A stretch of 64,000 nucleotides of DNA from an uncultured Thermotogae bacterium (GCA_964354815.1 CAYHBG010000001.1:10803-74802), one strand, 5' to 3'. Shown: positions 8,605 to 46,080, numbered from the stretch's first letter. Program-made: numbers and translations. Notes: a model not told the origin generated them from the sequence alone.

Positions 8605-8918
8605 GAACCATCACCATCACCATCCAGGTCCCCGACGGCGTCAACGTCAGCGTCAACCAGAGCGACGGACAGCGGGCCCAGCCGCAGCAGCAGGACCGTC
8701 CGTTCGTGGCCCGGCCGGCTCCGCCCCAGCCTGATGGCGTCTGCCCGGTCCACGACACCGACTGGAAGCTCGTCCCCGCCGGGGTCAGCAAGAAGGTCAC
8801 CAACGCCGACGGCAGCCCGAAGCGGTACAACGCCTTCTGGGCCTGCCCGGAGCGCGGCTGCAACGAGAAGCCGGAGTTCACGCGGTCGGAGGAGCCGAGC
8901 GAGGAGCTCCCGTTCTGA
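8601..8918 (+). CDS. hypothetical protein with C-P-V-H...C-P-E-R-G-C zinc-binding-like motif
   Basis: GTGA overlap start; Gln/Pro-rich linker then DGVCPVHD...FWACPERGCNEKP. Confidence 0.45.
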   Translation: MRTITITIQVPDGVNVSVNQSDGQRAQPQQQDRPFVARPAPPQPDGVCPVHDTDWKLVPAGVSKKVTNADGSPKRYNAFWACPERGCNEKPEFTRSEEPSEELPF

Positions 8919-9265
8919 TGCACACCCTCACCCTTGTGGGTGACCCGAACGACGGCACCCACGGCCTGTACATGAACGGCGTCCTCATCTGTGACAGCGG
9001 CGATGCCGACGCCACCCTCAACAGCCCCGACCTGGACTTCTGGCGCGATGCCCTCGACGCCGCCATCACCGCCCTGGGAGGAGAGCTGGACGAGCAGACC
9101 CGCTACCGCCCAGGCCGGAAGGCCGGCGCTCCGTTCGAGGAGGAGTGGGAGTCCTTCTGGCCCGAGAAGCTCGAGAACATGGGGCCCGTTGAGCCACCCA
9201 TCGGAGAGGAGCCCGTCTTCGAGCTCGACGACGAGGAGCCTGCCAACCCCGACTACATCTTCTGA
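8918..9265 (+). CDS. hypothetical acidic protein (115 aa)
   Basis: TGATG overlap start; strongly acidic C-terminus (EPVFELDDEEPANPDYIF). Confidence 0.45.
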   Translation: MHTLTLVGDPNDGTHGLYMNGVLICDSGDADATLNSPDLDFWRDALDAAITALGGELDEQTRYRPGRKAGAPFEEEWESFWPEKLENMGPVEPPIGEEPVFELDDEEPANPDYIF

Positions 9266-9741
9266 TGCGAGTCGCCATCGCGGGGAGCCGACGCCTGCCG
9301 AAGGGCCAGGCTCCCCGCCTCCTCATCCGTTTCCTCGCGGCGCTGCCGGACGACGCCGTGATCCTCATGCGCCGGCCGAAGGGCGACGGCTCCCTCGCCG
9401 GGTCCCTGCCGGGTCCCTTCGAGATGGACGCGCAGAACCTGTGCGGGATCCTCCACCTCGCGGCGGAGTGGTTCCAGCCGGAGCCGACGGACCATCACCC
9501 GGGGAGGGCCAGCGTCTACCTCCGCGACATCGAGATGATCGAGAAGGCGGATCTGGTGATCCTGTTCGTCCACCCCGACGAGGTGGACACGGGGTACAGC
9601 GGGACCATGCACCTCCTCGACAAGGCTCTCGACGCAGCCCGCCCCTGCTACGCCTACAGCGTGTCCCCGGACGGCAAGGTCGCGAGAGTGGGGGAGTACG
9701 ACCCGGACCACCTCTACGCCGAGATTGCACCTTCCGCTTGA
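9265..9741 (+). CDS. SLOG/DUF2493-like Rossmann-fold protein (DprA/LOG-like fold)
   Basis: MRVAIAGSRRL N-terminus, later DIEMIEKADLVILF, pattern typical of phage DUF2493/SLOG proteins; ends immediately before the promoter and RNA array. Confidence 0.45.
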   Translation: MRVAIAGSRRLPKGQAPRLLIRFLAALPDDAVILMRRPKGDGSLAGSLPGPFEMDAQNLCGILHLAAEWFQPEPTDHHPGRASVYLRDIEMIEKADLVILFVHPDEVDTGYSGTMHLLDKALDAARPCYAYSVSPDGKVARVGEYDPDHLYAEIAPSA

Positions 9742-9767
9742 CATGGCGATATTCGCCAGCGTATTGT
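9738..9767 (+). promoter_or_regulatory. near-consensus sigma-A-type promoter TTGACA-N18-TATTGT at the head of the non-coding RNA array
   Basis: ttgaca 9738-9743, 18-nt spacer, tattgt 9762-9767; only array unit with a full -35/-10 pair. Confidence 0.45.
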
Positions 9768-9822
9768 TCGTGGGCCGTCGCGGTGCGTATGGTGGGGTTA
9801 CTTCCCTTGTAAGGACGAGGTA

Positions 9823-9875
9823 GCGGGTTCGACTCCCGTCACGCCGGAAACGTCGTGTAGCTCATCGGCAGAGCG
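9823..9875 (+). ncRNA. tRNA-like module 1 (permuted: T-arm -> acceptor-type hairpin -> D-arm), candidate Y-RNA-like tRNA mimic
   Basis: gcggg-TTCGACT-cccgt T-arm (9823-9839), cacgccg/gaaa/cgtcgtg hairpin (6 of 7 bp), ta + gctc-atcggca-gagc D-arm (9858-9874); no anticodon arm in canonical position. Confidence 0.4.
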
Positions 9876-9974
9876 CGAAACATCCTCGCCAGACCTGTTC
9901 TCGTCGCGGCACTTGACAATCGAATAGTGGTGGCGGTGCGAAGGCCAGGGATACTTCGATGGGATCTGTGGGTC

Positions 9975-10031
9975 GCGGGTTCGAGTCCCGTCCCCCTGTA
10001 CATGCAGGGGGTAGCTCAGTCTGGTAGAGCA
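9975..10031 (+). ncRNA. tRNA-like module 2 (permuted T-arm -> perfect 7-bp acceptor-type hairpin -> canonical D-arm), candidate Y-RNA-like tRNA mimic
   Basis: gcggg-TTCGAGT-cccgt T-arm (9975-9991), ccccctg/tacatg/caggggg perfect hairpin (9992-10011), ta + GCTC-AGTCTGGTA-GAGC D-arm (10012-10030). Confidence 0.45.
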
Positions 10032-10561
10032 ATAGATGTGAAAGACCTTGACCGACCAGTCCTCGCCTCCACAACAACCGTGCTGACGGTGCGTAGCCTG
10101 GGGATACTTCTCTTGAAAGGAACCTCTGGCGACCTGTCCTCGTCAGCAACAACCGTGCTGACGGTGCGTAGGGTGGGGGTTACTTCCCCTTCTTGGAGAC
10201 AAGGTTCGACTCCTTCGGGTGACCTCGGTCACCTGTAGGCGGGGGTGGCCCCGCGTAGACACCCCTCCGCCCGCTTGATCTCGTCAGCAACAACCGTCTC
10301 GGCGGTGCGTAGACAGGGGTTACTTCGTTGGTTGACACTTCCCCCTTCAACAAGGGGAAGCGGGCGGCTCGACTCCGCCAAGCTGCCTCCGTCGCCTTGA
10401 TCTCGCCGGGACAACATCAACGCCAGCGGTGCGTAGGAGAGGGTTACTTCGGTGCCAGGGCTTCGGCCCACCGACGGTCTACCGGACCGTCAACCCCGCA
10501 AGGGGTCGTCTCCTTCTCCGACTTGACCTCGCTGGCAACAGCCTGAAAGGCAGACGCTTGA

Positions 10562-12160
10562 ATGGGCAAGCTCGCCACGCGGCCGAAGGCCGCACCGAAG
10601 GCCGCGATCCGCTCCACGAAGGGGCGGAAGCCGGACACCAAGACCTTCAACTCTGGTGCCGGGTTCAGCCGCGAGCCGAAGTCGGAGCTGTACCTCCTGG
10701 CCGTGACGAACATGGTCAGCGAGAAGACGTTCTACGAGTCCGCCGAGACTCGTGACCGCCGGTTCAACGACCTCATCCGCCAAGTGGCGCTCGAGGATCC
10801 CGACTGGCTGGCGCGGTTCGTGCCGTACCTCCGCGACACCATGAACATGCGGACGGCCTCCATCGTGATGGCGGCCGAGACGGTCCACGCGAAGCTGACC
10901 AAGCCGGTCCCCGCGTCCACGATCAAGAACCGGACGATCATCGACTCCGCCATCAAGCGGGCCGACGAGCCGGCGGAGATGCTGGGCTACTGGTTCAGCG
11001 AGTGGGGCAAGAACCTCCCGCAGCCGGTGAAGCGCGGCGTGGCCGACGCGGTCCAGCGCCTGTATGGCGAGCGCAGCCTCATCAAGTACGACGGCGGCGA
11101 CAAGGCCATCCGGTTCGCGGATGTGATCGACCTCGTCCACCCGGAGGCGAAGGCCCCCTGGCAGTCGGCCCTGTTCAAGTACGCCCTCGATGACCGCCAC
11201 AAGCGGGAGAACCCGCTGCCCGGCGACCTCGCCATGATCGGTCTCAACCGTCTGGCGATGGGCCTCGGTGACGTTGCGTTCCGGGAGGCGTTCGGACCCT
11301 CGTTCGTGGAGCACGCCGGCCTCACCTGGGAGCAGGCGAGCTCGAAGTACGGCAAGCTCGACGCCCGGTTCTGGGAGGCGATGATCCCCTCGATGGGCAT
11401 CTTCGCCATCGTGCGGAACCTCCGCAACTTCGACGACGCGAAGATCAGCAACGCCGCCCAGGACCTGGTGCGGGCCAAGCTGACCGATGCCGAGACCATC
11501 GCCAAGAGCCGGATGTTCCCGCTCCGCTTCTTCACCGCCTTCCTGGCGACGAAGACGCTGACCTACGCCCGCGAGCTCGAGACCGCCATCGACCTGTCGC
11601 TGGCGAACGTGCCCAGCCTCAAGGGCAAGACGCTGATCCTCGTGGACATCAGCCGGTCGATGGACTGGGCGCTGTCCGCGAAGAGCGACGTGGTCCGGCT
11701 GGCCCCGGCCAGCATCTTCGGCGCGGCGCTCGCGGTCCGGGCGGAGAAGCCGACCCTCGTCGCCTTCACCGACACGAGCGTGGAGATCCACGTCCGCAAG
11801 GGCCAGAGCATCCTGCTCGCGACCAAGGAGATCGCGAACGCCCTGCCCCATCAGGGCACCCAGACCTTCCAGGCGGTGAAGCGCCACTTCAACAGTCACG
11901 ACCGCGTGATCATCATCACCGACGAGCAGGCTGACCCCTCGACGGCCTGGGGCTTCGGGGTGCGGGACACGTCCGACGTGGACCCGTCCGCGATCCTGCC
12001 CGAGACGGTGCCGCTGTTCACCTTCAACGTCGCGGGCTATGCCGCCGGCCACGCGCCGTCGGGGAAGCGCAACCGCTACGCCTTCGGCGGGCTGAACGAC
12101 TCCGCCTTCACCGCCATCGAGCTCCTCGAGAAGGGGCGCGACCAGACCTGGCCCTTCTGA
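10562..12160 (+). CDS. rsr: Ro60-related protein (Rsr): TROVE domain plus C-terminal von Willebrand A domain
   Basis: 532 aa; alpha-helical N-terminal region (FYESAETRDRRFNDLIRQVALEDPDWLARFVPYLRDTMNMRTASIV) typical of TROVE; vWA MIDAS motif LILVDISRSMDW about aa 357; Ro60 orthologs are typically adjacent to Y RNA genes. Confidence 0.7.
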   Translation: MGKLATRPKAAPKAAIRSTKGRKPDTKTFNSGAGFSREPKSELYLLAVTNMVSEKTFYESAETRDRRFNDLIRQVALEDPDWLARFVPYLRDTMNMRTASIVMAAETVHAKLTKPVPASTIKNRTIIDSAIKRADEPAEMLGYWFSEWGKNLPQPVKRGVADAVQRLYGERSLIKYDGGDKAIRFADVIDLVHPEAKAPWQSALFKYALDDRHKRENPLPGDLAMIGLNRLAMGLGDVAFREAFGPSFVEHAGLTWEQASSKYGKLDARFWEAMIPSMGIFAIVRNLRNFDDAKISNAAQDLVRAKLTDAETIAKSRMFPLRFFTAFLATKTLTYARELETAIDLSLANVPSLKGKTLILVDISRSMDWALSAKSDVVRLAPASIFGAALAVRAEKPTLVAFTDTSVEIHVRKGQSILLATKEIANALPHQGTQTFQAVKRHFNSHDRVIIITDEQADPSTAWGFGVRDTSDVDPSAILPETVPLFTFNVAGYAAGHAPSGKRNRYAFGGLNDSAFTAIELLEKGRDQTWPF

Positions 12161-12161
12161 G

Positions 12162-12686
12162 ATGGACGAAACAGCCGAGCGCCCTGATGGGTCATGGACC
12201 CTGAAGGACGCTCGGGCCTGGCTCCGCGAGCAGAGGGTTGATGGCGTCCGCTGTCCCTGCTGCACCCAGTTCGCCAAGATCTACAAGCGTCCCATCAACA
12301 GCCAGCAGACCCGTGCCCTGATCCTCCTCTACCGCCTGCGGGGTCGAGAATGGGCACACATCACCCGCGTGGACAAGAGCCTTGAGGGCAACGGGGGCGA
12401 CATCAGCAAGCTCCGCTACTGGGGCCTGGTCGAAGAGGCCGACGAAACGAGGCCAGACGGTGGCCGGGCAGGATGGTGGCGGATCACAGCCAGGGGCGAA
12501 CAATGGCTCCACGGGCAGCTCCTGGTCCCCAAGTTCGCCTACATCTTCGACACCCGTCTTCTCGAGCTCGATGGCCCGCCAACATCTGTTCGTACCGCTC
12601 TCGGGACGAAGTTCAACTACGAGGAGCTGATGGGTCCCGCCCTATCCAACCGAGACACCTTCTGGGACCTGGATCCCATCGAGTAG
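12162..12686 (+). CDS. hypothetical protein with CPCC motif (174 aa)
   Basis: ATG 2 nt after the rsr stop; VRCPCCTQFAKIYKRP; ends TAG 12684-12686. Confidence 0.5.
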   Translation: MDETAERPDGSWTLKDARAWLREQRVDGVRCPCCTQFAKIYKRPINSQQTRALILLYRLRGREWAHITRVDKSLEGNGGDISKLRYWGLVEEADETRPDGGRAGWWRITARGEQWLHGQLLVPKFAYIFDTRLLELDGPPTSVRTALGTKFNYEELMGPALSNRDTFWDLDPIE

Positions 12687-12696
12687 ACTCCGGGGC

Positions 12697-13137
12697 GTGA
12701 AGGTCCCCTACTCCGACAACACGATGCGCCAGACAGCCCATTGGGCGGAGTGGTTCGCGACGGACTGGAAGAGCGAGTACCCCACCCGCATCCACTCGAC
12801 CGACATCGCGGGAGACGGGTCCCCAGAGTGGCACCCGGACTTCGCGAAGTGGCTGACCAGATCAGGCGGTCAAGGCAGGCGCAACGGAGAACAACGCCTG
12901 CGGACCACCAGGGTCATGCGTCGTCTCAGGCGCGTGGCCGTTCGTGAATACGAGGTCCTCTACAGGATCCTCGTGCTAGGCGAGCGACTCGAGGAGACGA
13001 CGCGATGGCTCAACGAGCGAGCGAGGCGGAACGCGATCCCCTTCCCACCCCACCGCCCGACCGGCCCCCACTACATGGACCGCGACACCCTGGCGATCTT
13101 CATCGCCGGCATCGACTTCGCGAGGGAGTACTGGTAG
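12697..13137 (+). CDS. hypothetical protein (146 aa)
   Basis: GTG start; W-rich protein; no motif recognised. Confidence 0.45.
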   Translation: MKVPYSDNTMRQTAHWAEWFATDWKSEYPTRIHSTDIAGDGSPEWHPDFAKWLTRSGGQGRRNGEQRLRTTRVMRRLRRVAVREYEVLYRILVLGERLEETTRWLNERARRNAIPFPPHRPTGPHYMDRDTLAIFIAGIDFAREYW

Positions 13138-23453: not shown

Positions 23454-26400
23454 CTACACCGCCGGGGAGCGGAGACCGAGCATCTGGCCCTTCTTCGCGA
23501 GGACGCGCTCAACCTCGTGGGCCACGGCACGAGCCAGGTGCGAGATGTCCTGCTCGCCGCGAACCACGGGGCCGTTGATGTTCACGGTCACGCTGGAGGG
23601 ACCGCCGCCGAACCCGCCGCCCACATCCACCGAACGGGGGTTGCGGAGGATGGCAACCGCCTCGTCTCCCGCCTCGCCCATGATGGCGCGGGTCTTGCCC
23701 TTCGCCATGCCGACAATGCCGGCGGCGTGCGCGATGGTCGGAGCGGTGACGCTCGTCCCGGTCCTCGTCTTCTGGAACGAGAAGCCAAGAGCCTCGAGGA
23801 ACGACCGCATCCCGGTGGATGCCCCGCCGACGTAGTCGCCGAGCGTGGAAAGGTCAGCGTTCGCCTGCTTGATCGTGCCGCCGAACGTGTCGGCGTACTG
23901 CGCCGCCAGGTCCTGGGCGATGGAGTACTTGTTCATCGCGGTGTTGTAGATATCGTCCGCCTTGCCGAGATCGGTAGCGATCTGGGTGTTGAGGGCCGCG
24001 ATGGCGGCCTGGGCCGCCGCCGTCTCGACCTCCGCCGTGTGGGCGGCCTGAGAGGCGGCCCATGCAGCCTGGGCGTCCTGAAGGTTCCGCTGGGCCTGGA
24101 TCTTCCACTCCTCGCCGGTCCCGGCGTAGGACTCCTTGGCATAGCCCAGCTTCTGCTGGCCGATGCCGGCGGTGATGATCGCCTCCTTCTGGCGCATGTA
24201 CCGCTCTTCGCCCGTCTCGCCGGGAGCCTGGAACTGGGCGATGGCGAGCTGGGTCGTGATCTGCCGCTGCTGGAGGGCGAGGTCGAGCGCCTGGCTGGCG
24301 CGGCCGATCTGCCAGAGGTGCCGCTGGAGCTTGCCAAGGGCGGACCCTCCGGCCTGGCCCAGCATGCCGGCCGCGTCCGCGATGCCACGCAGGGCCAGGC
24401 GGGTCGTGTTGGCCCAACTCGCCTGAGAGGCGGTGGCGGACAACTCACCGATCTGACTCTGGAGGTTGGCGACCTCACGACTCGCGTCTTGCGCCGAGGT
24501 CATCAGGCCCTTGTAGCGATCAGCATTGGCCTGGCCGGACGTGGGGAGCATCTGCTTCCCGAACTGGCCTTCACCGAGGGACACCGTCTGCATCGTGCCC
24601 GGACCGGGCTGGCTCTGGATCTCCGCGTAGGCCTTGTCGATGGCCTTCTGGTTGTCGATCTCCTGTGCGACCTGAAGCTCGGTGGCGCGAGCCATGTACC
24701 CGGCCGCCTCCGCTGCGGCTCCCTTGGACAGGCCCATGCCGCCGCCGAACGTGGGCGTTCCGCCCTTGCCGAACTTGACCGTGGGCTTGCCGCTCAGGAT
24801 CTGCTGGTACTCGTCGGTCGCCATGCCCTTGGCCCAGTCGGACCAGCCCTGCTGGTTGCCGAACGAGGCCCCGGCCCTGGTCCGCTGCTTCTGCCAGTAC
24901 GAGATACCAGCCGCCCCCGGCACGACCCCCGATCCGGCGGGGAGATACGGACTCTGGATCCGCTGCATCGCCTGGTTGAGCGGGATCGTCAGGGTCTGGG
25001 TGATCATGCTCGCGATGTCGAGGCGCTCGAACTGCACCGCGACCTTGCGCTCCATCGTCTTGCCCCACTCCGCCGCGTCGGGGATCGTGAGGCCGGTCGT
25101 CCAGTCCTTGAGCGCCTTGTCGATGGTGTTGAAGTCCGTGATGATCTTGCCGGTAGCATCCGTGAAGGCGTACCCGGTGTTCATCAGGTTCTTGACCATC
25201 TGGGGCAGCGCGGCAGCGGCGGGACTCTTGCCCGCATCACGCGCCTCCTGCCCCCGGTACGCCATCGTGGGTCCGGCCGCAGCCCCGACCCGCTTCTGGG
25301 CGCGGGTCATCGCGGCGTTCGTGGAGTCGGTGATGGCGAGTTCGGCATCCATCATCGAGTTGAACTTCTGGGAGACCTCGTTCCAGTTGCCGAACTCCGT
25401 CGGGGAGTAGTACATCTCCTGGACGTTCTTCGGCCGCAGAGCCGGCTCGCCGCCCGGTGTCTGGTTCAGGATGTCCCCGACGATGGCACCGATGCCGCCG
25501 GCGGCAGCACCGCCGACAGCGCCTGCGCCGACGCCGAACGGGGTGGCCGACCACGCCCCGAGACCAGCTCCGGCAGCAGCCCCGGCACCGGCAGCGCCGA
25601 TGTAGCGCCCGATGCCGGTGTCGCCACGGCTGGCCCGGATGGTGTTGACCAACTCCTCGACCGCGCCAGACCCGCCGCCGAACTGGGTCCCGAACAGGGG
25701 TCCGCCCATGACGCCGCCGTAGCCGCCATAAAGGCCCTGGGCCCCACCCTGCATGCTGGCGGCGGCCAGGATCTGGTCCGACGCCTCGGACCACGCCTTG
25801 CCGCCAGCCTTGGCGACGACGGACGCCTTGAGGGCATCTTCCACCCAGCTCCCGACGGAAAGCGAGAGACCAGCCGTCGCAGCCGTTCCAGCGATGGCGG
25901 CCTGGTAGTTACCACCCTGCTGGCGCGTCTGATCAGCGAGGGCGTTCGTGACCTTGGTGGCCGTCGGAGCCATGCCCATCATCACGTCGCCGACACGCTG
26001 CATGGCCGGTAGGGCAGCCTCGTCAATGATCTTCGACGCAGCCTGCATCGCCATGCCGTAGAGGCTGGTCGAGCCAATGATCACGCCCAGGTTGCGGAGC
26101 ACGCCGCCCGTGGTGGGCATCGTCTTCTTGGTGGCGGCATCTAGCTCCTTCTGGTATTGCCTCTCGGCCTGAACCAGCGGCTTGATGGTCTCGCTGTTCT
26201 TCTTCCTGGCCCCCTCGAGCTCCTTCTCCGCGTCGGCTCGTTCGGGCGTTCCCTCCCCGTACTTATCGACCTCGGAGCGGTAGGCATTCAGGTTCGCCAC
26301 GCCCTTCTGGATGGCGTATCCGGTGCGGTTGTGCGCCTGGGTGTACGCCTTCTCCGCCTGGGCGCGGGCGACCATCGCCCGGTCGTATCCCTGGACGCCG

Positions 26401-35293: not shown

Positions 35294-35995
35294 TCATAGC
35301 CGCACCGCGATCTCGATGTCCACGCTGGAGCCCCCGGTGCGGGAGGCCTCCTTCATGGCGTTGGCGATGAGGCCAACGACCTCTTCCCGGCTCTCCTCGG
35401 CGGCGGGGCGAAGGAAGGGGTGGGCACGGTTGTGGCGCGTGCCGAACTCCTGGTACTTCGCGTACTCCGTCGGGGAGATCACCCATGCGGTTGCTGTGGT
35501 GCCGGACACCGAGGGTGCCGTCGCGTGGATCTCTCCCCGCAGGCGACCGCCGATGCTGGCCCCGATGCCCAGGCGAACCCTGTTGCTGCCGATGTACAGC
35601 GCACGCTTGGTCTTCACCTCGCTCGCGCCGCGCTTCGTCAGTTGGGGGCTACCTGGAACGCCGGCCTTGTAGTCCTCGAGCAGGCTCTCCGCCGCAGCCA
35701 GCCGGCGCTTCTCAACGTCGCGCCGCAGGGTCGAACGGAAGCCGCCTGCCTTGAGAGGGGTGGGGGGCTTGACGTGGACCATCCACTCGTCGGCCCCGAT
35801 CTGGCCGCCCCGCGATGCGCGCAGGGCCTCCACATCGCCGATGTACTTGTTGGGCACGAGCTCGTGCTGCGCCCCGAAGATGTTGCGGACCGGGGCCCGC
35901 GCCTTGGCCCTGCCCTCGACGATCACCGCCCCCTGCCCGAGGGCATTCACGGCGGCGTCGAAGATCTCCCGTGCGATGGCCTCGAAGTTGATCAC
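35294..35995 (-). CDS. HK97 gp10-like head-tail joining protein
   Basis: YAKYQEFGTRHNRAHPFLRPA motif typical of the HK97 gp10 family; GTG 35995 in GTGA overlap with the upstream gene. Confidence 0.55.
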   Translation of the reverse strand: MINFEAIAREIFDAAVNALGQGAVIVEGRAKARAPVRNIFGAQHELVPNKYIGDVEALRASRGGQIGADEWMVHVKPPTPLKAGGFRSTLRRDVEKRRLAAAESLLEDYKAGVPGSPQLTKRGASEVKTKRALYIGSNRVRLGIGASIGGRLRGEIHATAPSVSGTTATAWVISPTEYAKYQEFGTRHNRAHPFLRPAAEESREEVVGLIANAMKEASRTGGSSVDIEIAVRL

Positions 35996-36399
35996 TCCCG
36001 CCTCCGCAGGCTGCACGTCAGGAGGGGCAGCCAGGTGGACTCGGCCGTGGTGTCGGAGACCGTGTAGTCGTCAGGCGCGGTGCCGACGTGGACGTGGTCG
36101 CCGGGCGCGATGTCGGTCCCCACGGGGACGAACAGGCGGTAGGTGTTGACCGTGACCACCATCCCCGTGTCCACGTCCTGCTGGGGCGTGGGCGTCGAGT
36201 GGAACCACCCCTTGACCTGGAGCCGCCGGCTCTCGTTCGTGACCGTGTAGGCCAGAAAGTCGTCGCCGTAATCGCCGCCGGCAGGGATCGGTCCCTCACT
36301 CCGCCGCTCGATGGTGATCGTCGTGATCATCCCCAGGAGCGCCACGTCGCGGACCCTATCCAACTGGTTCGGGGTGAGGAACCTGTTCTGGTTCGGCAT
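35992..36399 (-). CDS. head closure / head-tail connector protein (135 aa)
   Basis: ATG 36399 (MPNQNRF...) in ATGA overlap; the ORF-track 358-aa version is an over-extension. Confidence 0.4.
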   Translation of the reverse strand: MPNQNRFLTPNQLDRVRDVALLGMITTITIERRSEGPIPAGGDYGDDFLAYTVTNESRRLQVKGWFHSTPTPQQDVDTGMVVTVNTYRLFVPVGTDIAPGDHVHVGTAPDDYTVSDTTAESTWLPLLTCSLRRRE

Positions 36400-37316
36400 C
36401 AGCGCACCGTGATGTTGTCGGCCCGGAACGAGGAGAGGAGGAGGGCCGCCTCGGGAATGAGGAGGTCCAGGTTCTTGATCAGGCTGGCCGTCGCGCTCGT
36501 CGTGTCGCGGCGCTCCATCGTCACCTCCGCCACCGACAGGCGCGTGAGGTGAGCCATGCCACGGGCGTGGAGCTCGGACTGGCCGTGGAGGTGGGCCACG
36601 ATGTGCCCAGCCCCGTACTGGATGTCCGGCGGGAGCTTGTGGTGGTAGGAGACGCTGACCGTGTCTGTCGCGAGGAGGTTGTCGGTGAAGACGACCGTCC
36701 CCTCCGTCGAGTCCACCGTGAAGCCTGTGGTCTGTTCGGTGCCGTTGAGCTTCACGACCGGCTCGCGGTCGCTGTCGGTGAACCAGAACTGGTTCTGCGC
36801 CCGCCACGTCTGGCCGTCGGAACAGGTGAGGTCCTCGTCGGCGACCTCGAAGTCCCAGCCGTAGGTGTAGTCGGTCTCGGCGATGGGGGTCGCGAGGCCC
36901 ACGTTGGGGATCACGAGGGCGTTGAACAGGCCCTGGCTGGTGATCGCGAGGGAGACCACCTCGGCGTACCGCTCCGTGAAGTTGATCATCAGCTCCGTGG
37001 GTGCGATCTCGAGGTACTGGGTGTTGGTGACCTTGATGCGGAACTGCTGGATGGCGAGGATCGGCCAATGGAAGAAGTAGACCCGCCGCTGCCCCAGGTC
37101 GTTCGGCCAGACGGGGTAGCGCCAGGGGTGCTGCTCGCGCTTGATCGTTCCGCCCAGGAACGAGTGCGCCTGGGGGATCCGGGGCACGTTGCAGTAGCCG
37201 TTGACGACCGTGGTCGCCTGCGCGATGAGCGCAGCCAGCTCCGTGTCGTCGAGCTCGGAGATGTCGATCCCGAAGCCCATCTCGCGGAACCGCTGCGGCG
37301 TCAGATAGACGGCCAT
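36399..37316 (-). CDS. head-tail connector (gp6-like N-terminal region) protein, 305 aa
   Basis: N-terminus MAVYLTPQRFREMGFGIDISELDDTELAALIAQAT resembles gp6-like connector/DNA-packaging proteins; first gene after the capsid terminator. Confidence 0.4.
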   Translation of the reverse strand: MAVYLTPQRFREMGFGIDISELDDTELAALIAQATTVVNGYCNVPRIPQAHSFLGGTIKREQHPWRYPVWPNDLGQRRVYFFHWPILAIQQFRIKVTNTQYLEIAPTELMINFTERYAEVVSLAITSQGLFNALVIPNVGLATPIAETDYTYGWDFEVADEDLTCSDGQTWRAQNQFWFTDSDREPVVKLNGTEQTTGFTVDSTEGTVVFTDNLLATDTVSVSYHHKLPPDIQYGAGHIVAHLHGQSELHARGMAHLTRLSVAEVTMERRDTTSATASLIKNLDLLIPEAALLLSSFRADNITVR

Positions 37317-37320
37317 GCGT

Positions 37321-37353
37321 ACCTCCGGGGATGCGAAGGGACCGCCCCGGAGG
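37321..37353 (-). terminator. strong hairpin (cctccgggg-N14-ccccggagg) immediately downstream of the major capsid gene
   Basis: Perfect 9-bp GC-rich inverted repeat between the MCP stop (37375) and the next gene start (37316). Confidence 0.45.
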
Positions 37354-37374
37354 ACGGCCCCTTCACGCTGTGGC

Positions 37375-38706
37375 CTAGCTGGCGACCTTGACCCGGATCT
37401 TGTTGCTCCAGGGAAGGACCTTCACCGCGAGCCCGTTCATCATGAACACGATGTACAGGTGGGTGAGCTGACCCGAGATGCCGATGGGGATCTCGAGGAC
37501 CGTGGGGCCCGGGCTGCCGAGGTAGGGAAGCGTGATGCTGCCCTCGTCCAGCATGTACAGGTCGCGGTACAGGGTGCCGCCGATGTGGTACGAGGCGATG
37601 GAGTCGCCGGGGACCACCGCGAACGGGACCTGGCCGGCGTAGGTGTTGACCGCCTGCGCGGTGGCACCGACACCGATGTTGACGTACTGCGGGCCGACGA
37701 GCCGGACGTTGGCGTCCTGCTGCTCATCGAACGTGATCTTCTCCTGCGGGTGGCCCCACATGATCGACACGTTGCCGCCGGCCTGGGTGACCGGAAGCAG
37801 CGCCCTGTCCACGCCCTGCCGGAAGTTGCCGGTGGTCGTGGGGTTGGTTGCCGGGTCCAGGTTCACCGCGTTGGTGACCAGGAGCTGCCGCAGCCCGGTG
37901 AAGGCATTGGCGTCGTACAGGCCGAACTCGTCGTCGGCGGTGCCGGAAGCGACTGCAGCGTTGCCGCCGAAGATCTGCTTCTGCATCTTGTGGGACATGG
38001 CGCGGAGGCCACCCTGAAGCTCGATGGCCTCGGGGTTGTAGTTCATCCCGCCCGCCATCACAGCGAACTGCGACTTGAGGGAGATGCCGCGCCGGGTCGC
38101 CAGGATGCCGACGTTCGTGGTCTTCCGCTCGTAGGTGGACGTGTCGTCGCTGACCGTGCCGAGCTCGGCCATGAACTTCGCGTCACCGTAGGCGGTGATC
38201 TGGTTCCAGGCGTGGACCAGGCCGTTGGCCGGCTCCTTGGGGAAGCGGTCGTAGGCCGGGAACTGCCGGATGAAGACCTCGTAGAGCATCGGCTCGAGGT
38301 CCTGGCGGATCAGGGCCGTGGCCCCGCCCGTGTCCAGGGCCTTCGCGATGTCCGGGTCGAGCTGCCCGCCGAGCTGGTTGAAGGCGTTCTGGGCCGCGAA
38401 GCCCGCCGTGTTCAGCCAGAGGTCGAGCGGAATGCCGGTGTCCTTGCGGGCAGCCTGGCGCGTGGTGAGCTCCGCGATCTCGGAGATGGACTTCGTGCGA
38501 AGCACGGCGCTCATCTCGGACCGCTCGTCTGCGGTGATGTACCGCCGGGTGGCGGGTGCCGGAGTGCCCTGGTTCTCGACGCCGGCCGTGACGGCCGTGG
38601 TCGCGACGTTGGGTGCCTCGTTCATGCGGAGGAGCGTCTGACCGATCTGCTCCTGCGTCTCGAGGACACCCTTCAGGAGGGCTTCCAGCTCAGGCGACAT
38701 TGTCAT
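37375..38706 (-). CDS. major capsid protein (HK97 fold)
   Basis: 443 aa following the protease-scaffold gene; typical MCP length and composition; ORF-track N-terminal 120 aa is a GC-frame over-extension, ATG at 38706 (MTMSPELEALLKGV). Confidence 0.75.
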   Translation of the reverse strand: MTMSPELEALLKGVLETQEQIGQTLLRMNEAPNVATTAVTAGVENQGTPAPATRRYITADERSEMSAVLRTKSISEIAELTTRQAARKDTGIPLDLWLNTAGFAAQNAFNQLGGQLDPDIAKALDTGGATALIRQDLEPMLYEVFIRQFPAYDRFPKEPANGLVHAWNQITAYGDAKFMAELGTVSDDTSTYERKTTNVGILATRRGISLKSQFAVMAGGMNYNPEAIELQGGLRAMSHKMQKQIFGGNAAVASGTADDEFGLYDANAFTGLRQLLVTNAVNLDPATNPTTTGNFRQGVDRALLPVTQAGGNVSIMWGHPQEKITFDEQQDANVRLVGPQYVNIGVGATAQAVNTYAGQVPFAVVPGDSIASYHIGGTLYRDLYMLDEGSITLPYLGSPGPTVLEIPIGISGQLTHLYIVFMMNGLAVKVLPWSNKIRVKVAS

Positions 38707-41659: not shown

Positions 41660-41985
41660 TACTGCCGGCGGACGTTGATCGTCACCTCAGGACTGGTGGT
41701 CTGAACGCGACCGCCCTGGTAAGTGATCTCCCATTGGACGATGTACGTCCCTGGGACCGCGAGGTCGTTGGGACCCCACGAGTAGCTGACCTTGCCTGCT
41801 GGGCCGTCGAGGACCACACCCCCGGCATTCACCGTGTAGCGGTGGTCGTCCGCCTTCCGCATCTGGAACTTGACCCCGCTGACGTAGGCGGGGGAGCAGT
41901 CGAGGATGGACGACGGGTCGTCCTCTTCGTGGATGATGGCCGTGATGTCCGGGGCGGTGTCGCCCTGGACGAAGGTCAGGCTCAT
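41659..41985 (-). CDS. small beta-rich hypothetical protein (108 aa), possible Ig-like accessory domain protein
   Basis: ATG 41985 in ATGA overlap with the giant gene stop (41982-41984); ORF-track 352-aa version is a GC-frame over-extension. Confidence 0.4.
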   Translation of the reverse strand: MSLTFVQGDTAPDITAIIHEEDDPSSILDCSPAYVSGVKFQMRKADDHRYTVNAGGVVLDGPAGKVSYSWGPNDLAVPGTYIVQWEITYQGGRVQTTSPEVTINVRRQ

Positions 41986-44900
41986 GCGATCTCCGCGTCG
42001 AGGGTGAAGGTGCCGGCGATCCACGCCCCGGTCCTGAAGTAGTTCCGGCGGGTGAAGAGCCAGGTGAAGTCGAGCGTCCGCGCCGAGAGGGCCGGCGCGA
42101 TGGTGGCTGCGGTGTGGTCGCCCTCGATGGTCCCGGCCCACAGGTCGGGAGCAAGGGTTGCGGCGCTGAAGGTCCCCTCGATCTCGACCGTGATCCGCAG
42201 GCTGATCGAGGCGTCGATCCCGAACGTCCCGGTCCCAGCCGAGCCGATGACCGCGTCGAGCGTGAAGGAGACCGCCCCGAAGCCCGTGATCAGGGCGTCG
42301 AGGGTGAACGATGAGACAGGGCTGGAGCTGATCGAGGCGTCGGCCGTGAGGGTTCCGACGGAGCTCGCGAGGATGGTCGCCGCCGCATCGAAGGCGGAGG
42401 AGGGAGACCCCGTGATGACGGCGGCGACCGGGAAGGATCCGGTGACGGCCCCGACCACGATCTCGGCGGCGGCCGGGAAGGAGGAGGTCTGAGGGGACAG
42501 GGAGACGGCGTCGGTGGCGAACCCGCCCATTCGGGTGGCTGCCACGACCGCCTGGGTCGTGAAGCCTGCCTGCTGCGCCGTCTTCAGGACTGCGGCTGCG
42601 CCGAACCCACCGGGATAGGTCCGACGCAGGATCGCGTCCACGGAAACTGTAACAGAGCGCGTGCGCTTGACAACAGCGTCTGCAGCGAAAGCTCCGGCGT
42701 TCGCCCCGAAGATCCACGCCGCCGCGCTGAACGTCGAGACTGACTGGAAACTGATCACCGCGTCAGCGGCGACGGTTCCCGAGTTGTGGCGCAGCAGGAT
42801 CGCGTCGGTCGTGAACGAGCCGCCCTCCGCGACGGGCGCGACGATCCACGCTTCCGTGGTGAACGACCCGCCGACGGAGGCCTCCACCAGGGCCGAGACG
42901 GTCAGGACGCCAGCGCCCTGATGGGCGATGATGGCGTCGGTCGTCAGGGACGCTGGTGCCGTCCGGTGGATGACGGCGTCGGCTTGGACATGGGACGACG
43001 CCGTTCCCCTGACGACCGCATCCGCAGAGAAGGCGCTGGTCCCGGCCCCAGCCACCAGGGCCGCCACGCCGAAGGAGGTCAACGTGGGCTTGAGGACGAT
43101 GCTGTCCGAGGCGAAGGACGCCTGGACCGGACGCAGGATGGAGGCGTCGGCCGCGAAGCTCGACGTGGCGCTCGAGACGACCATCGCGCTCAACGAGAAC
43201 GCGCTCGCCCTGCTCGACATGATCGCCGAGTCGATCCTGAGCAGCCCCACCGCGCTCGAGCGGATGACCGCGTCCGCTGACAGGCTCGACACAGCCGCCG
43301 AACGGATCACCGCGTCGGTCGTGAAGGCGGAGGAGGCGCTCGAGCGGATGACCGCGTTGGCAGCGAAGGTCGAGGACGCCGTCGCGAGGAACAGCGCGTC
43401 CAGCGTGACCGGAGCTGACGCCTGGGTCCTGAGGAGCGCGGCATCCAACGTGACCGAGGCGTAGACCGGGCCCGCGATCCAGGCGTCGAGGTTGAAGAAG
43501 CCCGCCCGCCCAGCCCGGATGAAGGCATCGACGCTGATCGCGCCAGCCAGCCAGGAGCCAACCGTGAAGGTGCCCGAGAGCCACGCCCCGACCGGGAAGC
43601 TATGTGCGGTCTCTGACCGGATGACCGCATCCGCAGATAGACCGGAGATAGACGTGCGCCCGACGGTCGCGGAGGCCGTGAAGAAGGTCTGCGACGAGGA
43701 GCGGATGACCGCGCTCGCGGCCAGGGTCGCGGCGACGTTCCTGGAGATGATGGCCGAGGACGTGAAGGAGCTGGCGGTGGACCGCCGGACGACCGCATCC
43801 ACCGAGAAGGAGTAGGTCTTGGACGTGCGAACGAGGGCGGCGACGTTGAAGGTGAAGGCGACGTTCCTCGCCAACACCGCGTCGGACGTGAAGGTGAAGA
43901 TGGCCGCGCTGCGGATGATCGCGTCCATCGAGAAGGTCGAGGCGGCCGAGTCCCGCTTGACGGCAGCAGCCGAGAACGTGAAGGAGGCGCTGCTCCTGAT
44001 GACCGCGTCCGCAGCCGCGCTCGACGATGCCGTGGAGCGCAGCACCGACGCGACCGCGAAGGTGTTCGACTGACCCTTGGCGAGGACGGCCCCGGCGAAG
44101 AACGTCCCGGTGGCGGTCCGCTTGCTGATCGCAGCGGCGGTGAAGCTGCCGGCGGCCGTGCCCCTGATGACGGCGTTCACCGTCAGGGCCGACGAGACCG
44201 TCCTCTTGATGACCGCGTTCGCGGTGAAGGAGCCAGCGGTCGTCTCCCCGACGAGGGCAGCGACCGTGAACGACCCCGCCAGATGCCCCAGGACGGCCGC
44301 ATCCGCCGTCCACGCCGTACCACTCCGGGTTCCCCGCAGGATCGCGTAGGCGACGGTGCTGGAGGCCCTGGGGGCCAGGATCGTGGCGTTGGTCTGCCAG
44401 AAGCCCGAGGCGGAGACCTTCAGGACCGCGTTCGCGGTCAGGCTCCCCGTGTTCGTCTTCTGGATCCACGCCGCCGTTGTGAAAGCACCCGTGCGTGGGG
44501 CCTTGAATACGGCATCGGCCGTGAACGTCCTGCTAACGGTCCCCTTCACAACGGCGTTGGCCGAGGTGGCGCTCGTGGCCGTGGCCTTGACGAGGGCGTA
44601 GAGGGTCGTCGCGCCGCTGGCGCTGCCCTTGATGACCGCGTTCGCGGAGAAGGTTCCCGTCGGGACCCGGATCAGCCAGGCAGAAGCGGTCGTGGAGCCG
44701 GTCGAGGACCGCAGCAGGGTGGCGCTGGCGGTGAACGAGGCAGCCTGGGTGCGCTTCAGGACGGCGCTCACGCCGAAGGTGCCCGCCGTCGCGCCGTAGA
44801 TCAGGGCGGAGGCGGTGAAGGACCCGGACCTGGTGGCCTTCAGGGTCGCGGCTGCGGTGAACGTCCCGGCATTGGTCTTCTGGATCCACGCGGCTGCGGT

Positions 44901-46080
44901 GAAGGTGCCTGCCTGCGACCGCTTGATCACTGCGTTCGCCGTGGTGCTGCCGCTCGCGGACGCCTTGACCAAGGCCGCTGCCGTGAAGGTGCCGGAGGCG
45001 CTCGAGCGGATGACCGCGTTGGCCGTCAGGGATCCGCTGACTGTGGCCTTGATGCAGGCAGACGCGCTGAACGTGCCCGAAACGGGCTTCTGGAGCCACG
45101 AAGATGCAGTCAGGCTGCCGTTTCGGGTCGTCCTGACCACCGCGTTCGCGGTCAGGGAGGCGGTCGTAGAGGCCTTGACGAGAGCGGCAGCCGTGAACGA
45201 TCCCGCCTGACCCCGCTTCAGGACGGCGTTGGCCGTGAGGCCCGAGCTCGCCGTCCCCTTGACCACGGCCGCAGCCGTGAACGTCGAGGCGACCGTCTTC
45301 TGGACCCACGCCGCTGCCGCGAAGCTCGATGACGCCGGCCGCTGCACCACCGCAGCGGCGGTGAACGACCCTGCGGCGGTTGCCTTGACGAGGGCGGCAG
45401 CGGTGAACGTGCCCGCCTGGGTCCGCCGCACCACCGCATCGGCCTTGGTCGAGCCTGCGGCGGTCGCCTTGACGACCGCGTTGGCGGTGGTCGAGGAGGC
45501 GTAGGTCTTCTGGATCCACGCGCTCGCCGTGAACGTCGAGGACAGCGTGGCCTTGCGGACGGCATCGGCCGTGAAGGTGCCCGACCTCGTCGCCTTCAGG
45601 ACGGCGTTGGCGGTCGTGGACGAGGTGGCCGTCCCCTTGACCACCGCGTTCGCCGTGAGCGACGACGAGATCGTCGCCTTTCGCACGGCGTCTGCCGTGA
45701 AGGTCTTCGTGGACGACGTGGCCTTGATGACCGCGTTCGCGGTCGTGCTGCCGCTGGTGGTCCTCTTCAGGATCGAGTCGGCCTTCAGGGTCGAGGCTGT
45801 GACCGTCGCCTTGACCACGGCTGCCGCCGTGAACGTCCCGGTGCGGGTGCCCTTCAGGACCGCGTTGGCGGTCAGGGACCCCGCCTGGGTGCGCTTCAGG
45901 ACGGCGTTCGCCGTCAGGGCCGACGAGACCGTCCTCTTGATGACCGCGTTCGCGGTGAATGCCCCGCTGGCCGTCGTCCGGCGGATGGCGTCGGCGGTGA
46001 ACGAGCCCGACTGCGTCTTCCGCAGGATTGCATCAGCGGTGAGACCGACGATGCCACCCTTGCCCGTGATGTAGTGCGCG
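41982..46080 (-). repeat. about 4.1 kb of in-frame tandem ~48-51-nt coding repeats (FTADAV/FTANAV peptide repeats)
   Basis: Periodic ...gcgtc.gcggtgaa.g...c.g... pattern visible on the plus strand; translated repeats are listed in the ORF track. Confidence 0.7.

What the first reader, a model, noticed from the sequence alone, without database searches (positions are those of the whole stretch)
9781..10445. Conserved 24-nt core CGGTGCGTAgnnnGGGGTTACTTC repeated six times with a cTTGAC(c)tcg motif heading each unit
The core recurs at roughly 150, 155, 75, 140 and 115 bp intervals. Only the first unit has a complete TTGACA-N18-TATTGT promoter (9738-9767). The others may be internal promoters, processing sites, or protein-binding sites, for example for the Ro60 protein. 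The array ends with UUCG- and GCAA-tetraloop hairpins just before the rsr start. I did not recognise the motif.
Basis: seen in the sequence. Interest (0 to 1): 0.7.

Follow-up and report, generated by a model that had tools for sequence, protein, structure and literature searches.

The report
Six tandem Y RNAs beside Ro60
The repeat is an array of six small non-coding Y RNA genes just upstream of a phage's Ro60 (rsr) gene, and the conserved 24-nt core is the part of each RNA that pairs with its own 3' end to form the predicted Ro60-binding stem; this is a known kind of system, here in unusually high copy number and missed by standard annotation.

Summary
The six-fold core is real. It occurs at 9781, 9934, 10087, 10162, 10303 and 10427 on the + strand and nowhere else in the 64 kb.

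It is not a promoter array. Window 9774-10538 holds six tandem Y RNA-like (Yrl) genes directly upstream of rsr (TROVE/Ro60, 10562-12160).

In each unit the core and the few bases before it pair with that unit's own 3' motif, YUGWYCUCG.

Relatives support this fold by compensatory changes: 31 consensus pairs, 26 of them compensatory, in 63 long units.

A covariance model trained only on rsr-linked units from 26 actinobacterial chromosomes finds all six window units full-length (42-101 bits) and nothing else significant.

- Units 1 and 2 carry the YrlA-type tRNA-like module (T arm, closed acceptor hairpin, D arm).
- Unit 3 is a minimal hairpin.
- Units 4 and 5 keep only a T-arm-like hairpin.
- Unit 6 has three hairpins.

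There is one conserved sigma70-like promoter (9738-9767) and no terminator before rsr. This suggests one precursor that is processed into six RNAs.

The kind is known (Chen et al. 2014). The new points are the copy number (4-8 in viral contigs, 1-3 model hits in bacteria), the non-tRNA-like modules, and that Rfam YrlA misses all units at its threshold.

The parts
9738..9767 (+). Sigma70-like promoter TTGACA-N18-TATTGT. The predicted transcription start at about 9773-9775 coincides with the first paired base of unit 1.
   Evidence: It is the only promoter-like site in 8800-13000. The -35 and -10 elements are conserved upstream of the first unit in relatives L004 and L001, while the spacer between them differs.
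9774..9910 (+). Unit 1, a YrlA-type Y RNA-like gene. Core 9781-9804, tRNA-like module (T arm, closed acceptor-like hairpin, D arm) at about 9816-9877, 3' motif CTGTTCTCG 9895-9903.
   Evidence: R1 model 85.2 bits, E=3.5e-20, full length. Rfam YrlA 32.0 bits, below the threshold of 69. It is a row of the 63-sequence alignment with 31 consensus pairs.
9927..10072 (+). Unit 2, a YrlA-type Y RNA-like gene. Core 9934-9957 (GCGAAG variant), T arm, 7-bp acceptor-like hairpin CCCCCUG/CAGGGGG, D arm, 3' motif CAGTCCTCG 10057-10065.
   Evidence: R1 101.2 bits, E=2.7e-24. Rfam YrlA 45.4 bits at 9967-10038. Its best orthologue is L004:3459-3603.
10080..10149 (+). Unit 3, a minimal (short-class) Y RNA-like gene. 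Core 10087-10110, one small apical hairpin, 3' motif CTGTCCTCG 10134-10142.
   Evidence: R1 41.6 bits, E=1e-10 with filters off. The minimum-free-energy fold is a single long hairpin, z=-2.2. It is a member of the 52-sequence short class, whose basal stem has 8 pairs, 6 of them compensatory.
10155..10290 (+). Unit 4, with a T-arm-only module. Core 10162-10186, AAGG-UUCGACU-CCUU hairpin plus two further hairpins, 3' motif TTGATCTCG 10275-10283.
   Evidence: R1 51.8 bits, E=1.4e-11. In a 3-sequence alignment with L002 and L004, 39 pairs are predicted, 14 with compensatory changes. Fold z=-2.9. Its T-arm stretch matches the RNA-sense sequence of the M. smegmatis YrlB probe.
10296..10412 (+). Unit 5, with a T-arm-like module (GGCGG-CUCGACU-CCGCC) after a GC-rich hairpin. 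Core 10303-10326, 3' motif TTGATCTCG 10397-10405.
   Evidence: R1 45.8 bits, E=5.2e-10. In a 3-sequence alignment with L004 and L028, 34 pairs are predicted, 11 compensatory.
10420..10538 (+). Unit 6, with a three-hairpin module (UUCG, 3-nt and GCAA loops) and no T or D arm. Core 10427-10450, 3' motif TTGACCTCG 10523-10531.
   Evidence: R1 43.7 bits, E=1.8e-09. Fold z=-4.2, with 0 of 200 shuffles folding as well. The orthologue L004:3859-3983 keeps the hairpins through base changes.
10562..12160 (+). rsr, encoding a Ro60/TROVE-domain RNA-binding protein of 532 aa. It starts 24-25 nt after unit 6, with no terminator in between.
   Evidence: Pfam TROVE E=6.6e-14. phrog_850 RNA-binding protein E=1e-51. 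PDB 9L5Y/9KOP (Thermus phage phiLo Ro60) E=6e-23. 39-44% identical to the 'Ro-like RNA binding protein' of Streptomyces and Gordonia phages.

Best explanation
Window 9774-10538 encodes six tandem Y RNA-like non-coding RNAs, the RNA partners of the Ro60 orthologue Rsr that is encoded immediately downstream.

Each RNA closes on itself. A variable 6-8-bp terminal stem is continued by the conserved 5' block CGGUGCG(N)AG, which pairs with the conserved 3' block YUGWYCUCG. This is the counterpart of the GGUCCGA / UUGACC Ro-binding helix of animal Y RNAs and of the CGAA-type motif of bacterial ones. Next come a small internal loop and a second covarying 7-9-bp helix. The junction WUACUUC then leads into a unit-specific apical module:
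- a tRNA-like module (T arm, closed acceptor hairpin, D arm) in units 1 and 2;
- a minimal hairpin in unit 3;
- a T-arm-only module in units 4 and 5;
- three hairpins in unit 6.

Shown here: the repeat, the fold (by covariation across about 140 related units), homology to rsr-linked units of actinobacterial chromosomes, the constant position and strand relative to rsr, and a single conserved promoter.

Inferred: the array is transcribed from 9738-9767 as one precursor that probably runs on into rsr. It would then be cut in the 5-16-nt linkers (mostly A/C-rich) between units. Each mature RNA would be bound and stabilised by the phage Rsr through the conserved stem. The different apical modules would tether or gate Rsr towards different partners, for example host PNPase or enzymes that recognise the tRNA elbow, as established for Deinococcus, Salmonella and Thermus-phage Ro60/Y RNA complexes.
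For: - **The repeat.** Six cores lie only here and all on the rsr strand.
- **The terminal stem.** Across 88 distinct units, the positions -1 to -6 before GGUGCG pair with the bases around the end of the 3' motif in 90-100% of units, using many pair types (position -1: C-G 64, U-A 18, A-U 5). Registers shifted by 1-2 nt give 0-0.8.
- **Helix 2.** This helix was not used to select units. A unit's own strands give -12.6 kcal/mol duplex energy, against -6.7 with partners swapped between units, p=6e-45.
- **Consensus folds.** RNAalifold on 63 long units gives 31 pairs, 26 compensatory, covering the terminal stem, helix 2, T arm, acceptor-like hairpin and D arm; window units 1 and 2 are included. 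On 52 short units the terminal stem has 8 pairs, 6 compensatory.
- **An independent model.** Model R1 was built only from 26 units next to rsr in actinobacterial chromosomes. It finds all six window units full-length at 101, 85, 52, 46, 44 and 42 bits. The next hit in the 64 kb scores 9.9 bits.
- **Link to rsr.** R1 gives 159 hits in 74 rsr loci. In the 64 loci that were fetched through the rsr match, all hits are on the rsr strand and nearly all lie upstream of it.
- **Rfam.** YrlA matches the tRNA-like modules of units 1 and 2 (45.4 and 32.0 bits, E=1e-8 and 9e-5).
- **The protein.** The adjacent ORF is a TROVE/Ro60 protein.
- **Transcription signals.** There is one promoter, conserved in relatives, and no terminator before rsr.
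- **Literature.** M. smegmatis YrlA and YrlB lie upstream of rsr, are processed from one precursor and co-precipitate with Rsr. Deinococcus Yrn2-tRNA-Yrn1 is polycistronic (PMC4201824). Thermus phage Ro60 binds two upstream Yrls and host PNPase (PMC12135203).
Against: - There are no expression, end-mapping or binding data for this phage or any close relative.
- Rfam YrlA is below its gathering score of 69 bits for every unit, here and in all 32 related loci tested. Units 3-6 get no Rfam match at all.
- The published motif GNCGAAN0-1G is not matched literally. The core reads GGUGCG[A/U]AG, and only unit 2 has CGAA.
- Forced global Rfam alignments put that motif against the second block (ACGGAUACUU) instead. 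Which block contacts Rsr is therefore not settled.
- Folding-energy z-scores for units 1, 2 and 5 are unremarkable (-0.3, -1.1, -1.2).
- Units entered the terminal-stem statistics only if at least 6 of 9 flank positions paired. This inflates those percentages; it does not affect the helix-2 test or the R1 search.
Confidence: 0.85

Rival explanations
1. The region is only a structured 5' leader of the rsr mRNA. The repeated stems would be cis-acting Rsr-binding sites that auto-regulate rsr translation or stability, not genes for free small RNAs.
For: There is one promoter and no terminator between the array and rsr. Unit 6 ends only 24-25 nt before the ATG. The array is always on the rsr strand.
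Against: Homologous units in M. smegmatis accumulate as discrete Rsr-bound RNAs (PMC4201824). In several loci the units are separated from rsr by genuine tRNA genes or lie 1-2 kb upstream. Distinct apical modules are conserved between phages, which a simple titration site would not need. The two roles are not mutually exclusive.
Confidence: 0.08
2. The units are tRNA genes or decayed tRNA pseudogenes, a phage tRNA cluster. The core would be the acceptor 5' strand plus U8-A9.
For: The Rfam tRNA model scores 26.2 bits on 9781-9847. ARAGORN and GenBank call a tRNA on the 5' half of homologous units in the phages VanLee and Alone3 and in L075, L060 and L002. In BRock and Alone3, rsr sits inside a real tRNA cluster.
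Against: ARAGORN finds no tRNA in the window, and 26.2 bits is below the tRNA gathering score of 29. A normal-topology acceptor stem between the core and the 7 nt after the T arm is not conserved: mean 3.67 of 7 pairs in register, against 3.0-4.2 at other offsets, and only 12% of units have 6 or more. The strand after the T arm instead covaries with the following strand as a closed hairpin. Units 3 and 6 have no T arm at all.
Confidence: 0.03
3. The repeats act as DNA: iterated promoters or operator sites for a transcription factor.
For: TTGAC-like hexamers recur, and the first one is part of a good promoter.
Against: No -10 element follows any of the other TTGAC-like motifs. The motifs are strictly strand-specific. 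The variable flanks change in a compensatory, base-pairing manner, including G-U pairs, which DNA-level recognition would not select. The core is not found upstream of any other gene in the 64 kb.
Confidence: 0.02

Closest known systems
Mycobacterium smegmatis YrlA and YrlB (Chen et al. 2014, RNA 20:1715, PMC4201824)
   Same: An actinobacterial Rsr locus with two or more Y RNAs upstream of rsr on the same strand, processed from a single precursor. YrlA carries T, acceptor-like and D arms. YrlB is shorter and keeps a T-arm. The RNA-sense versions of the published probes align to this family: YrlA-5' against the family consensus, and YrlB against the T-arm stretch of window unit 4. Model R1, built on actinobacterial chromosomal units, scores the window units at 42-101 bits.
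   Different: There are six units here rather than two, in a phage. Two module types (units 5 and 6) have no described counterpart. The M. smegmatis locus itself could not be fetched, so the comparison rests on probe sequences and on other actinobacteria.
Rfam RF02553 YrlA / Salmonella Typhimurium YrlA (crystal structure 6CU1, bioRxiv 10.1101/312249)
   Same: A modular design of a Ro-binding stem plus a tRNA-like effector module, with the order T arm, closed acceptor hairpin, UA, D arm. Units 1 and 2 align to model positions 23-89.
   Different: Scores are 45 and 32 bits against a threshold of 69. The stem half of the model does not align. The actinobacterial/phage type has an extra conserved 5' block, a recognisable 3' strand and an extra hairpin before the T arm. 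In Salmonella the genes lie downstream of rsr in the rtc operon (my recollection of Chen et al. 2013; not checked in the papers read here).
Deinococcus radiodurans Yrn1/Yrn2
   Same: Several Y RNAs upstream of rsr are made as a polycistronic precursor. Both strands of the Ro-binding helix are recognisable, as in animals (PMC4201824).
   Different: There are two RNAs plus an interleaved tRNA, with a different orientation of the tRNA-like arms. No sequence similarity was detected.
Thermus phage phiLo Ro60 with Yrl1/Yrl2 (NAR 2025, PMC12135203)
   Same: A phage-encoded Ro60 with Y RNA-like genes directly upstream and a CGAA-type motif at an internal loop of the 5'/3' stem. The protein is the only solved structure matched by the window's Rsr (E=6e-23). 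Binding to Yrls and host PNPase was shown experimentally.
   Different: Two units rather than six, a different host phylum, and no tRNA-like module was mentioned in the passages read.
Metazoan Y RNAs (Rfam RF00019)
   Same: The Ro-binding helix has a 5' strand GGUCCGA and a 3' strand UUGACC (the human Y1/Y3 sequences are recalled from memory). Compare GGUGCGA/U and CUUGAYC here, at a similar distance from the RNA ends.
   Different: No match to the Y_RNA model at E<=10. The apical part is entirely different.

Membership tests
Y RNA (Ro60-associated ncRNA, general definition) | The 5' and 3' ends pair into a long stem. | tested here: met
   All six units close with a terminal stem in their minimum-free-energy folds. 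The stem covaries across relatives.
Y RNA (Ro60-associated ncRNA, general definition) | A conserved Ro60-binding motif in the 5' strand of that stem (GGUCCGA in animals, GNCGAAN0-1G / CGAA in bacteria and phage). | tested here: inconclusive
   GGUGCG[A/U]AG is invariant at the right place and matches GGUCCGA at 5-6 of 7 positions. Only unit 2 has a literal CGAA, and GNCGAA is not matched exactly. Rfam global alignments place the motif on the second block.
Y RNA (Ro60-associated ncRNA, general definition) | Encoded next to the Ro60/rsr gene, on the same strand. | tested here: met
   The array ends 24-25 nt before rsr. The same arrangement is seen across 74 loci.
Y RNA (Ro60-associated ncRNA, general definition) | Physically bound and stabilised by Ro60. 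| not testable with these tools
   This needs a pull-down or EMSA. It has been shown only for homologues in M. smegmatis, Salmonella, Deinococcus and Thermus phage.
Rfam RF02553 YrlA | Covariance-model score at or above the gathering threshold (69 bits). | tested here: not met
   Units 2 and 1 score 45.4 and 32.0 bits, and units 3-6 have no hit. None of the 32 related loci reaches the threshold either. Nine bacterial loci give 30-52 bits.
Rfam RF02553 YrlA | A tRNA-like module in the order T arm, closed acceptor-like hairpin, UA, D arm. | tested here: met
   Met for units 1 and 2 (alignments; covariation). Not met for units 3-6, which belong to other Yrl classes.
Actinobacterial rsr-linked Yrl family (model R1, defined here) | A full-length significant match to a model trained without any window or viral sequence. 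| tested here: met
   All six units match model positions 1-143 at 42-101 bits, E=1e-10 to 3e-24.
tRNA | A cloverleaf recognised by ARAGORN or by Rfam RF00005 at 29 bits or more, with a conserved acceptor stem joining the 5' and 3' ends. | tested here: not met
   ARAGORN finds 0 genes in the window. RF00005 scores 26.2 bits on unit 1 only. The alternative acceptor pairing is no better than out-of-register controls.
Sigma70 promoter array | A -35 and a -10 hexamer at 16-18 nt spacing before each unit. | tested here: not met
   Only 9738-9767 qualifies.

The most novel reading that the evidence does not exclude
Actinophages carry expanded, diversified Y RNA cassettes (4-8 paralogues per rsr gene, against 1-3 model hits in bacterial chromosomes). 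Each paralogue shares one Ro60-docking stem but presents a different apical module. The phage Rsr would then be programmed by a small library of adaptors, each aimed at a different host partner: PNPase, tRNA-elbow-binding enzymes, or possibly tRNA-targeting defence nucleases, since several units present anticodon-arm-like hairpins. Because the docking stem is the same as in host actinobacterial Y RNAs, the phage RNAs could also capture or compete for the host's own Rsr.
Probability: 0.3. Interest if true: 0.65.

Novelty: new member of a known kind. Interest (0 to 1): 0.42.

Why it matters
Ro60/Y RNA particles are conserved from bacteria to humans, where Ro60 is a lupus/Sjogren autoantigen. What the variable Y RNA modules recruit is still largely unknown.

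A phage that invests about 760 nt in six different Y RNAs in front of its own Ro60 offers a compact natural set of adaptors to test that question: one protein, and six RNAs with the same docking stem and different heads.

There is also a practical consequence. These arrays are invisible to Rfam at its curated threshold. In GenBank phage records they are left blank, annotated as hypothetical proteins, or their 5' halves are called tRNA-Arg or tRNA-Ser. Phage tRNA inventories next to rsr are therefore likely to contain false entries.

Tried and rejected
1. **Internal promoters.** The scan finds one promoter only. Rejected.
2. **True tRNAs.** ARAGORN finds none in the window.
3. **A conserved normal-topology cloverleaf,** with the core as acceptor 5' strand. 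This would have supported a tRNA-like 5' half. Pairing in register averages 3.67 of 7, no better than out-of-register controls. Rejected as a conserved feature. The sporadic tRNA calls may be vestigial or chance, and the link to the dimeric-tRNA origin model (cited in bioRxiv 10.1101/312249) remains a lead only.
4. **Rfam at gathering score,** on the window and on 32 related loci. No YrlA hit.
5. **Fetching the M. smegmatis locus** with a probe-derived 23-mer. No exact match in genome contigs.
6. **A conserved protein partner next to rsr.** The flanking ORFs are shared only with the two closest loci, and the ORF right after rsr with none.
7. **A close cultured relative of the phage.** No megablast hit for 24 kb.
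8. **Deciding between the two possible registers of the Ro helix.** The positions concerned are invariant, so there is no discriminating covariation.
9. **Reviews and supplements.** Two Wolin-lab reviews and the supplements of Chen et al. 2014 are not held. I could not check whether arrays of this size have been tabulated before.

Full report
**The observation.** The region 9500-10800 was read directly. The composite pattern CGGTGCGWA-N4-7-GGRTTACTTC has four exact matches in the 64-kb window, against none in 100 dinucleotide-preserving shuffles. The two further copies differ only by GCGAAG and/or GGATACTTC. The six cores start at 9781, 9934, 10087, 10162, 10303 and 10427. All are on the + strand, with spacings of 153, 153, 75, 141 and 124 bp. 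The array lies in a local G+C dip, 0.57-0.61 against about 0.68 in the flanks. It sits between a 158-aa ORF that ends at 9741 and a 532-aa ORF at 10562-12160. That ORF is a TROVE/Ro60 protein:
- Pfam TROVE, E=6.6e-14;
- phrog_850, E=1e-51;
- the Thermus phage phiLo Ro60 structures 9L5Y/9KOP, E=6e-23.

The window is a phage. It encodes a portal protein, a large terminase and a major head protein. It has no close cultured relative. Its Rsr is 39-44% identical to the Ro-like proteins of Streptomyces and Gordonia phages.

**What the units are.** Rfam reports nothing at its curated thresholds. A permissive scan of 9600-10700 gives two YrlA (Y RNA-like, RF02553) matches. They lie at 9967-10038 (45.4 bits, E=1e-8) and 9816-9877 (32.0 bits), and both cover the T arm, closed acceptor-like hairpin and D arm of the model.

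Folding each inter-core segment shows the same outer architecture in all six:
- The few bases before the core plus CGG pair with ...CUCG plus the bases after it.
- GCG pairs across a one-base bulge.
- UA faces a 3-4-nt loop.
- The nnnnGGGG part of the core pairs with a CCYCnnnn stretch just before that loop.

It ends a unit rather than heading the next. Its homologues in units 1-3 read CUGUUCUCG, CAGUCCUCG and CUGUCCUCG, not TTGAC.

**Relatives.** A protein-guided scan of IMG/VR returned 26 loci with an Rsr relative. A scan for the core returned 13 more. A scan of one genome per bacterial species returned 39 actinobacterial loci, from Streptomyces, Nocardia, Amycolatopsis, Micromonospora, Dactylosporangium and others.

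The core GGTGCG-N-AG...GG-WTACTTC recurs upstream of rsr, always on its strand, in most of these loci. I extracted 142 distinct units. Their lengths are bimodal, about 70-85 nt and about 130-150 nt. The classes are:

| Class | Units |
|---|---|
| T arm + D arm (YrlA-type) | 63 |
| Short | 52 |
| T-arm only | 18 |
| Other long | 9 |

**Evidence for the fold.** An earlier set of 88 distinct units was used for the pairing statistics. In it, positions -1 to -6 before GGUGCG pair with the last base of the 3' motif and the five bases after it in 90-100% of cases. Many pair types are used: at -1, C-G 64, U-A 18, A-U 5, U-G 1. Registers shifted by 1-2 nt give 0-0.8. Units were admitted only if at least 6 of 9 such positions paired, so these percentages are inflated.

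Helix 2 played no part in the selection. Its own strands give -12.6 kcal/mol duplex energy, against -6.7 with partners swapped between units (Mann-Whitney p=6e-45).

RNAalifold on the 52 short units predicts the terminal stem: 8 pairs, 6 with compensatory changes. On 63 long units, including window units 1 and 2, it predicts 31 pairs, 26 with compensatory changes. These comprise the terminal stem, helix 2, T arm, a strongly covarying closed acceptor-like hairpin and the D arm.

Units 4, 5 and 6 have only one to three recognisable orthologues, in L002, L004 and L028. Small alignments still show 14, 11 and 5 pairs kept through double changes.

**An independent membership test.** I built covariance model R1 from 26 long units taken only from bacterial chromosomes. 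No window or viral sequence was included. Searched against the whole window, it returns five units full-length:

| Unit | Coordinates | Bits |
|---|---|---|
| 2 | 9927-10072 | 101.2 |
| 1 | 9774-9910 | 85.2 |
| 4 | 10155-10290 | 51.8 |
| 5 | 10296-10412 | 45.8 |
| 6 | 10420-10538 | 43.7 |

With filters off it also returns unit 3, 10080-10149, at 41.6 bits. The next best hit in 64 kb scores 9.9 bits (E about 1).

Over 74 related loci R1 gives 159 hits at E<=1e-4. In the loci oriented by the rsr match, all are on the rsr strand and nearly all lie upstream of it.

Rfam YrlA never reaches its 69-bit threshold in 15 viral and 17 bacterial loci. It gives 30-52 bits on bacterial units. The curated model therefore does not capture this actinobacterial/phage branch.

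**Link to validated Y RNAs.** Chen et al. 2014 (PMC4201824) report the following:
- YrlA-like RNAs lie within 4 kb of rsr in 254 bacteria and 22 phages.
- M. smegmatis YrlA (about 147 nt, tRNA-like) and YrlB (shorter, with a T-arm) lie upstream of rsr, are processed from one precursor and co-precipitate with Rsr.
- Deinococcus Yrn2-tRNA-Yrn1 is polycistronic.

The RNA-sense versions of their M. smegmatis probes align to this family. YrlA-5' aligns to the hairpin and GGUC that precede the T arm of the consensus. YrlB aligns best to the T-arm stretch of window unit 4. I could not fetch the M. smegmatis locus itself.

The 2025 study of Thermus phage phiLo (PMC12135203) shows that a phage Ro60 binds two upstream Yrls carrying a CGAA motif and assembles with host PNPase.

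**Transcription.** The only sigma70-like site in 8800-13000 is TTGACA-N18-TATTGT at 9738-9767. No terminator-like site lies between the array and rsr. The -35 and -10 hexamers are conserved upstream of the first unit in the two closest loci, while the spacer between them diverges. A start 6-8 nt after the -10 falls on the first paired base of unit 1 (9774).

Units are separated by 5-16 nt, mostly A/C-rich linkers (AACAACC and similar). Unit 6 ends 24-25 nt before the rsr ATG. I infer one precursor that continues into rsr and is cut in the linkers. This has not been shown.

**Copy number.** On the rsr strand, core counts are 6 in the window, 8 in L035 and 6 in each of L006, L008, L017 and L028. 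The 39 bacterial loci have 0-4 cores and 1-3 R1 hits.

The cultured phages BRock, VanLee and Alone3 each have four R1 hits in the gap before rsr. In these records the region is unannotated, or its 5' half is annotated as a tRNA. Examples are VanLee tRNA-Arg(tct) and Alone3 tRNA-Ser(gct), both inside full-length R1 hits. Gordonia phages Trax and Neville annotate a hypothetical protein over the part of this region that matches unit 1.

IMG/VR contigs are predictions and some are prophages. The viral-versus-bacterial contrast is an observation, not a controlled comparison.

**Rivals.**
- A pure cis-acting leader is possible as an additional role. It does not explain the conserved, distinct apical modules, nor units separated from rsr by real tRNAs.
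- tRNA genes are excluded. ARAGORN finds none in the window. The closed acceptor hairpin covaries. A normal-topology acceptor stem is no better than out-of-register controls.
- DNA-level promoters or operators are excluded by the lack of -10 elements and by RNA-type covariation that includes G-U pairs.

**Open points.**
- Which conserved block contacts Rsr is not settled. Block 1 (GGUGCGNAG with its 3' partner) has the position and the two-strand resemblance to the animal GGUCCGA/UUGACC helix. However, forced Rfam alignments set the GNCGAA motif against block 2.
- The register of the Ro helix cannot be resolved from invariant positions.
- It is not explained why WUACUUC is conserved in sequence in every class.
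- Partners of the six modules are unknown.

**Verdict.** The feature is a new, high-copy member of a known kind: Y RNA genes next to rsr. Its interest is moderate. It lies in the expansion and diversification of the array in phages and in the annotation gap, not in a new mechanism.

Noticed in passing
L080:2201-2342 (Gordonia phage VanLee NC_073474.1 65454-65525); L081:2189-2338 (Streptomyces phage Alone3 OR725492.1 10920-10993); also L075:2812-2880, L060:2808-2880, L002:3637-3710: tRNA genes annotated in GenBank or called by ARAGORN (tRNA-Arg tct, tRNA-Ser gct, tRNA-Asp gtc) lie inside full-length Y RNA-like units just upstream of rsr. They are probably the 5' halves of Y RNAs, not tRNAs. A normal-topology acceptor stem is not conserved across the family.
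   Followed up: partly
L079:1903-2394, L080:1902-2437, L081:1707-2338: The cultured phages BRock, VanLee and Alone3 each carry four R1 hits in the gap before rsr, which is otherwise unannotated. In BRock and Alone3, rsr sits in the middle of a large genuine tRNA cluster.
   Followed up: partly
L001 and L004 (IMGVR_UViG_3300028802_000007, 27941-37512 and 102940-112502): One 131-kb viral contig holds two rsr genes 75 kb apart, both 71% identical to the window's. Each has its own array (4 and 5 units) and the same flanking genes. This is either a large duplication or two related genomes joined in assembly.
   Followed up: no
L005, L006, L009, L017, L044 (e.g. L009:2208-2281, L006:3345-3419): Genuine tRNA genes (51-70 bits) are interleaved with the Y RNA-like units upstream of rsr. 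This resembles the Deinococcus Yrn2-tRNA-Yrn1 precursor.
   Followed up: no
window 9744-9758: An inverted repeat, TGGCGA-TAT-TCGCCA, fills the spacer between the -35 and -10 hexamers of the array promoter. It could be an operator. The terminator scan picked it up only because of the T-rich -10.
   Followed up: no
window 9804-9822, 10108-10126, and the column block after ACUUC in alignments A2/A3: The first hairpin after the core often has anticodon-arm geometry: a 4-5-bp stem and a 7-nt loop, in most cases beginning CU and ending AA or AU. Examples are CUUGUAA in unit 1, CUUGAAA in unit 3, and CUGUUAA, CUGCUAA and CUCAUAA in relatives. This is why tRNA finders assign anticodons to these units.
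   Followed up: partly
window 12162-12686 (+): A 174-aa ORF starts 2 nt after the rsr stop codon. It matches phrog_2693 (unknown function, E=5e-43). No homologue was found next to rsr in any fetched locus.
   Followed up: partly
window 23454-33029 (-) and 41982-49850 (-): Two very long ORFs of 3191 and 2622 aa lie on the minus strand of the structural region of the phage. They were not examined.
   Followed up: no
window 9911-9926: The 16-nt linker between units 1 and 2 contains a perfect TTGACA (about 9914-9919) with no -10 element at 16-18 nt.
   Followed up: yes
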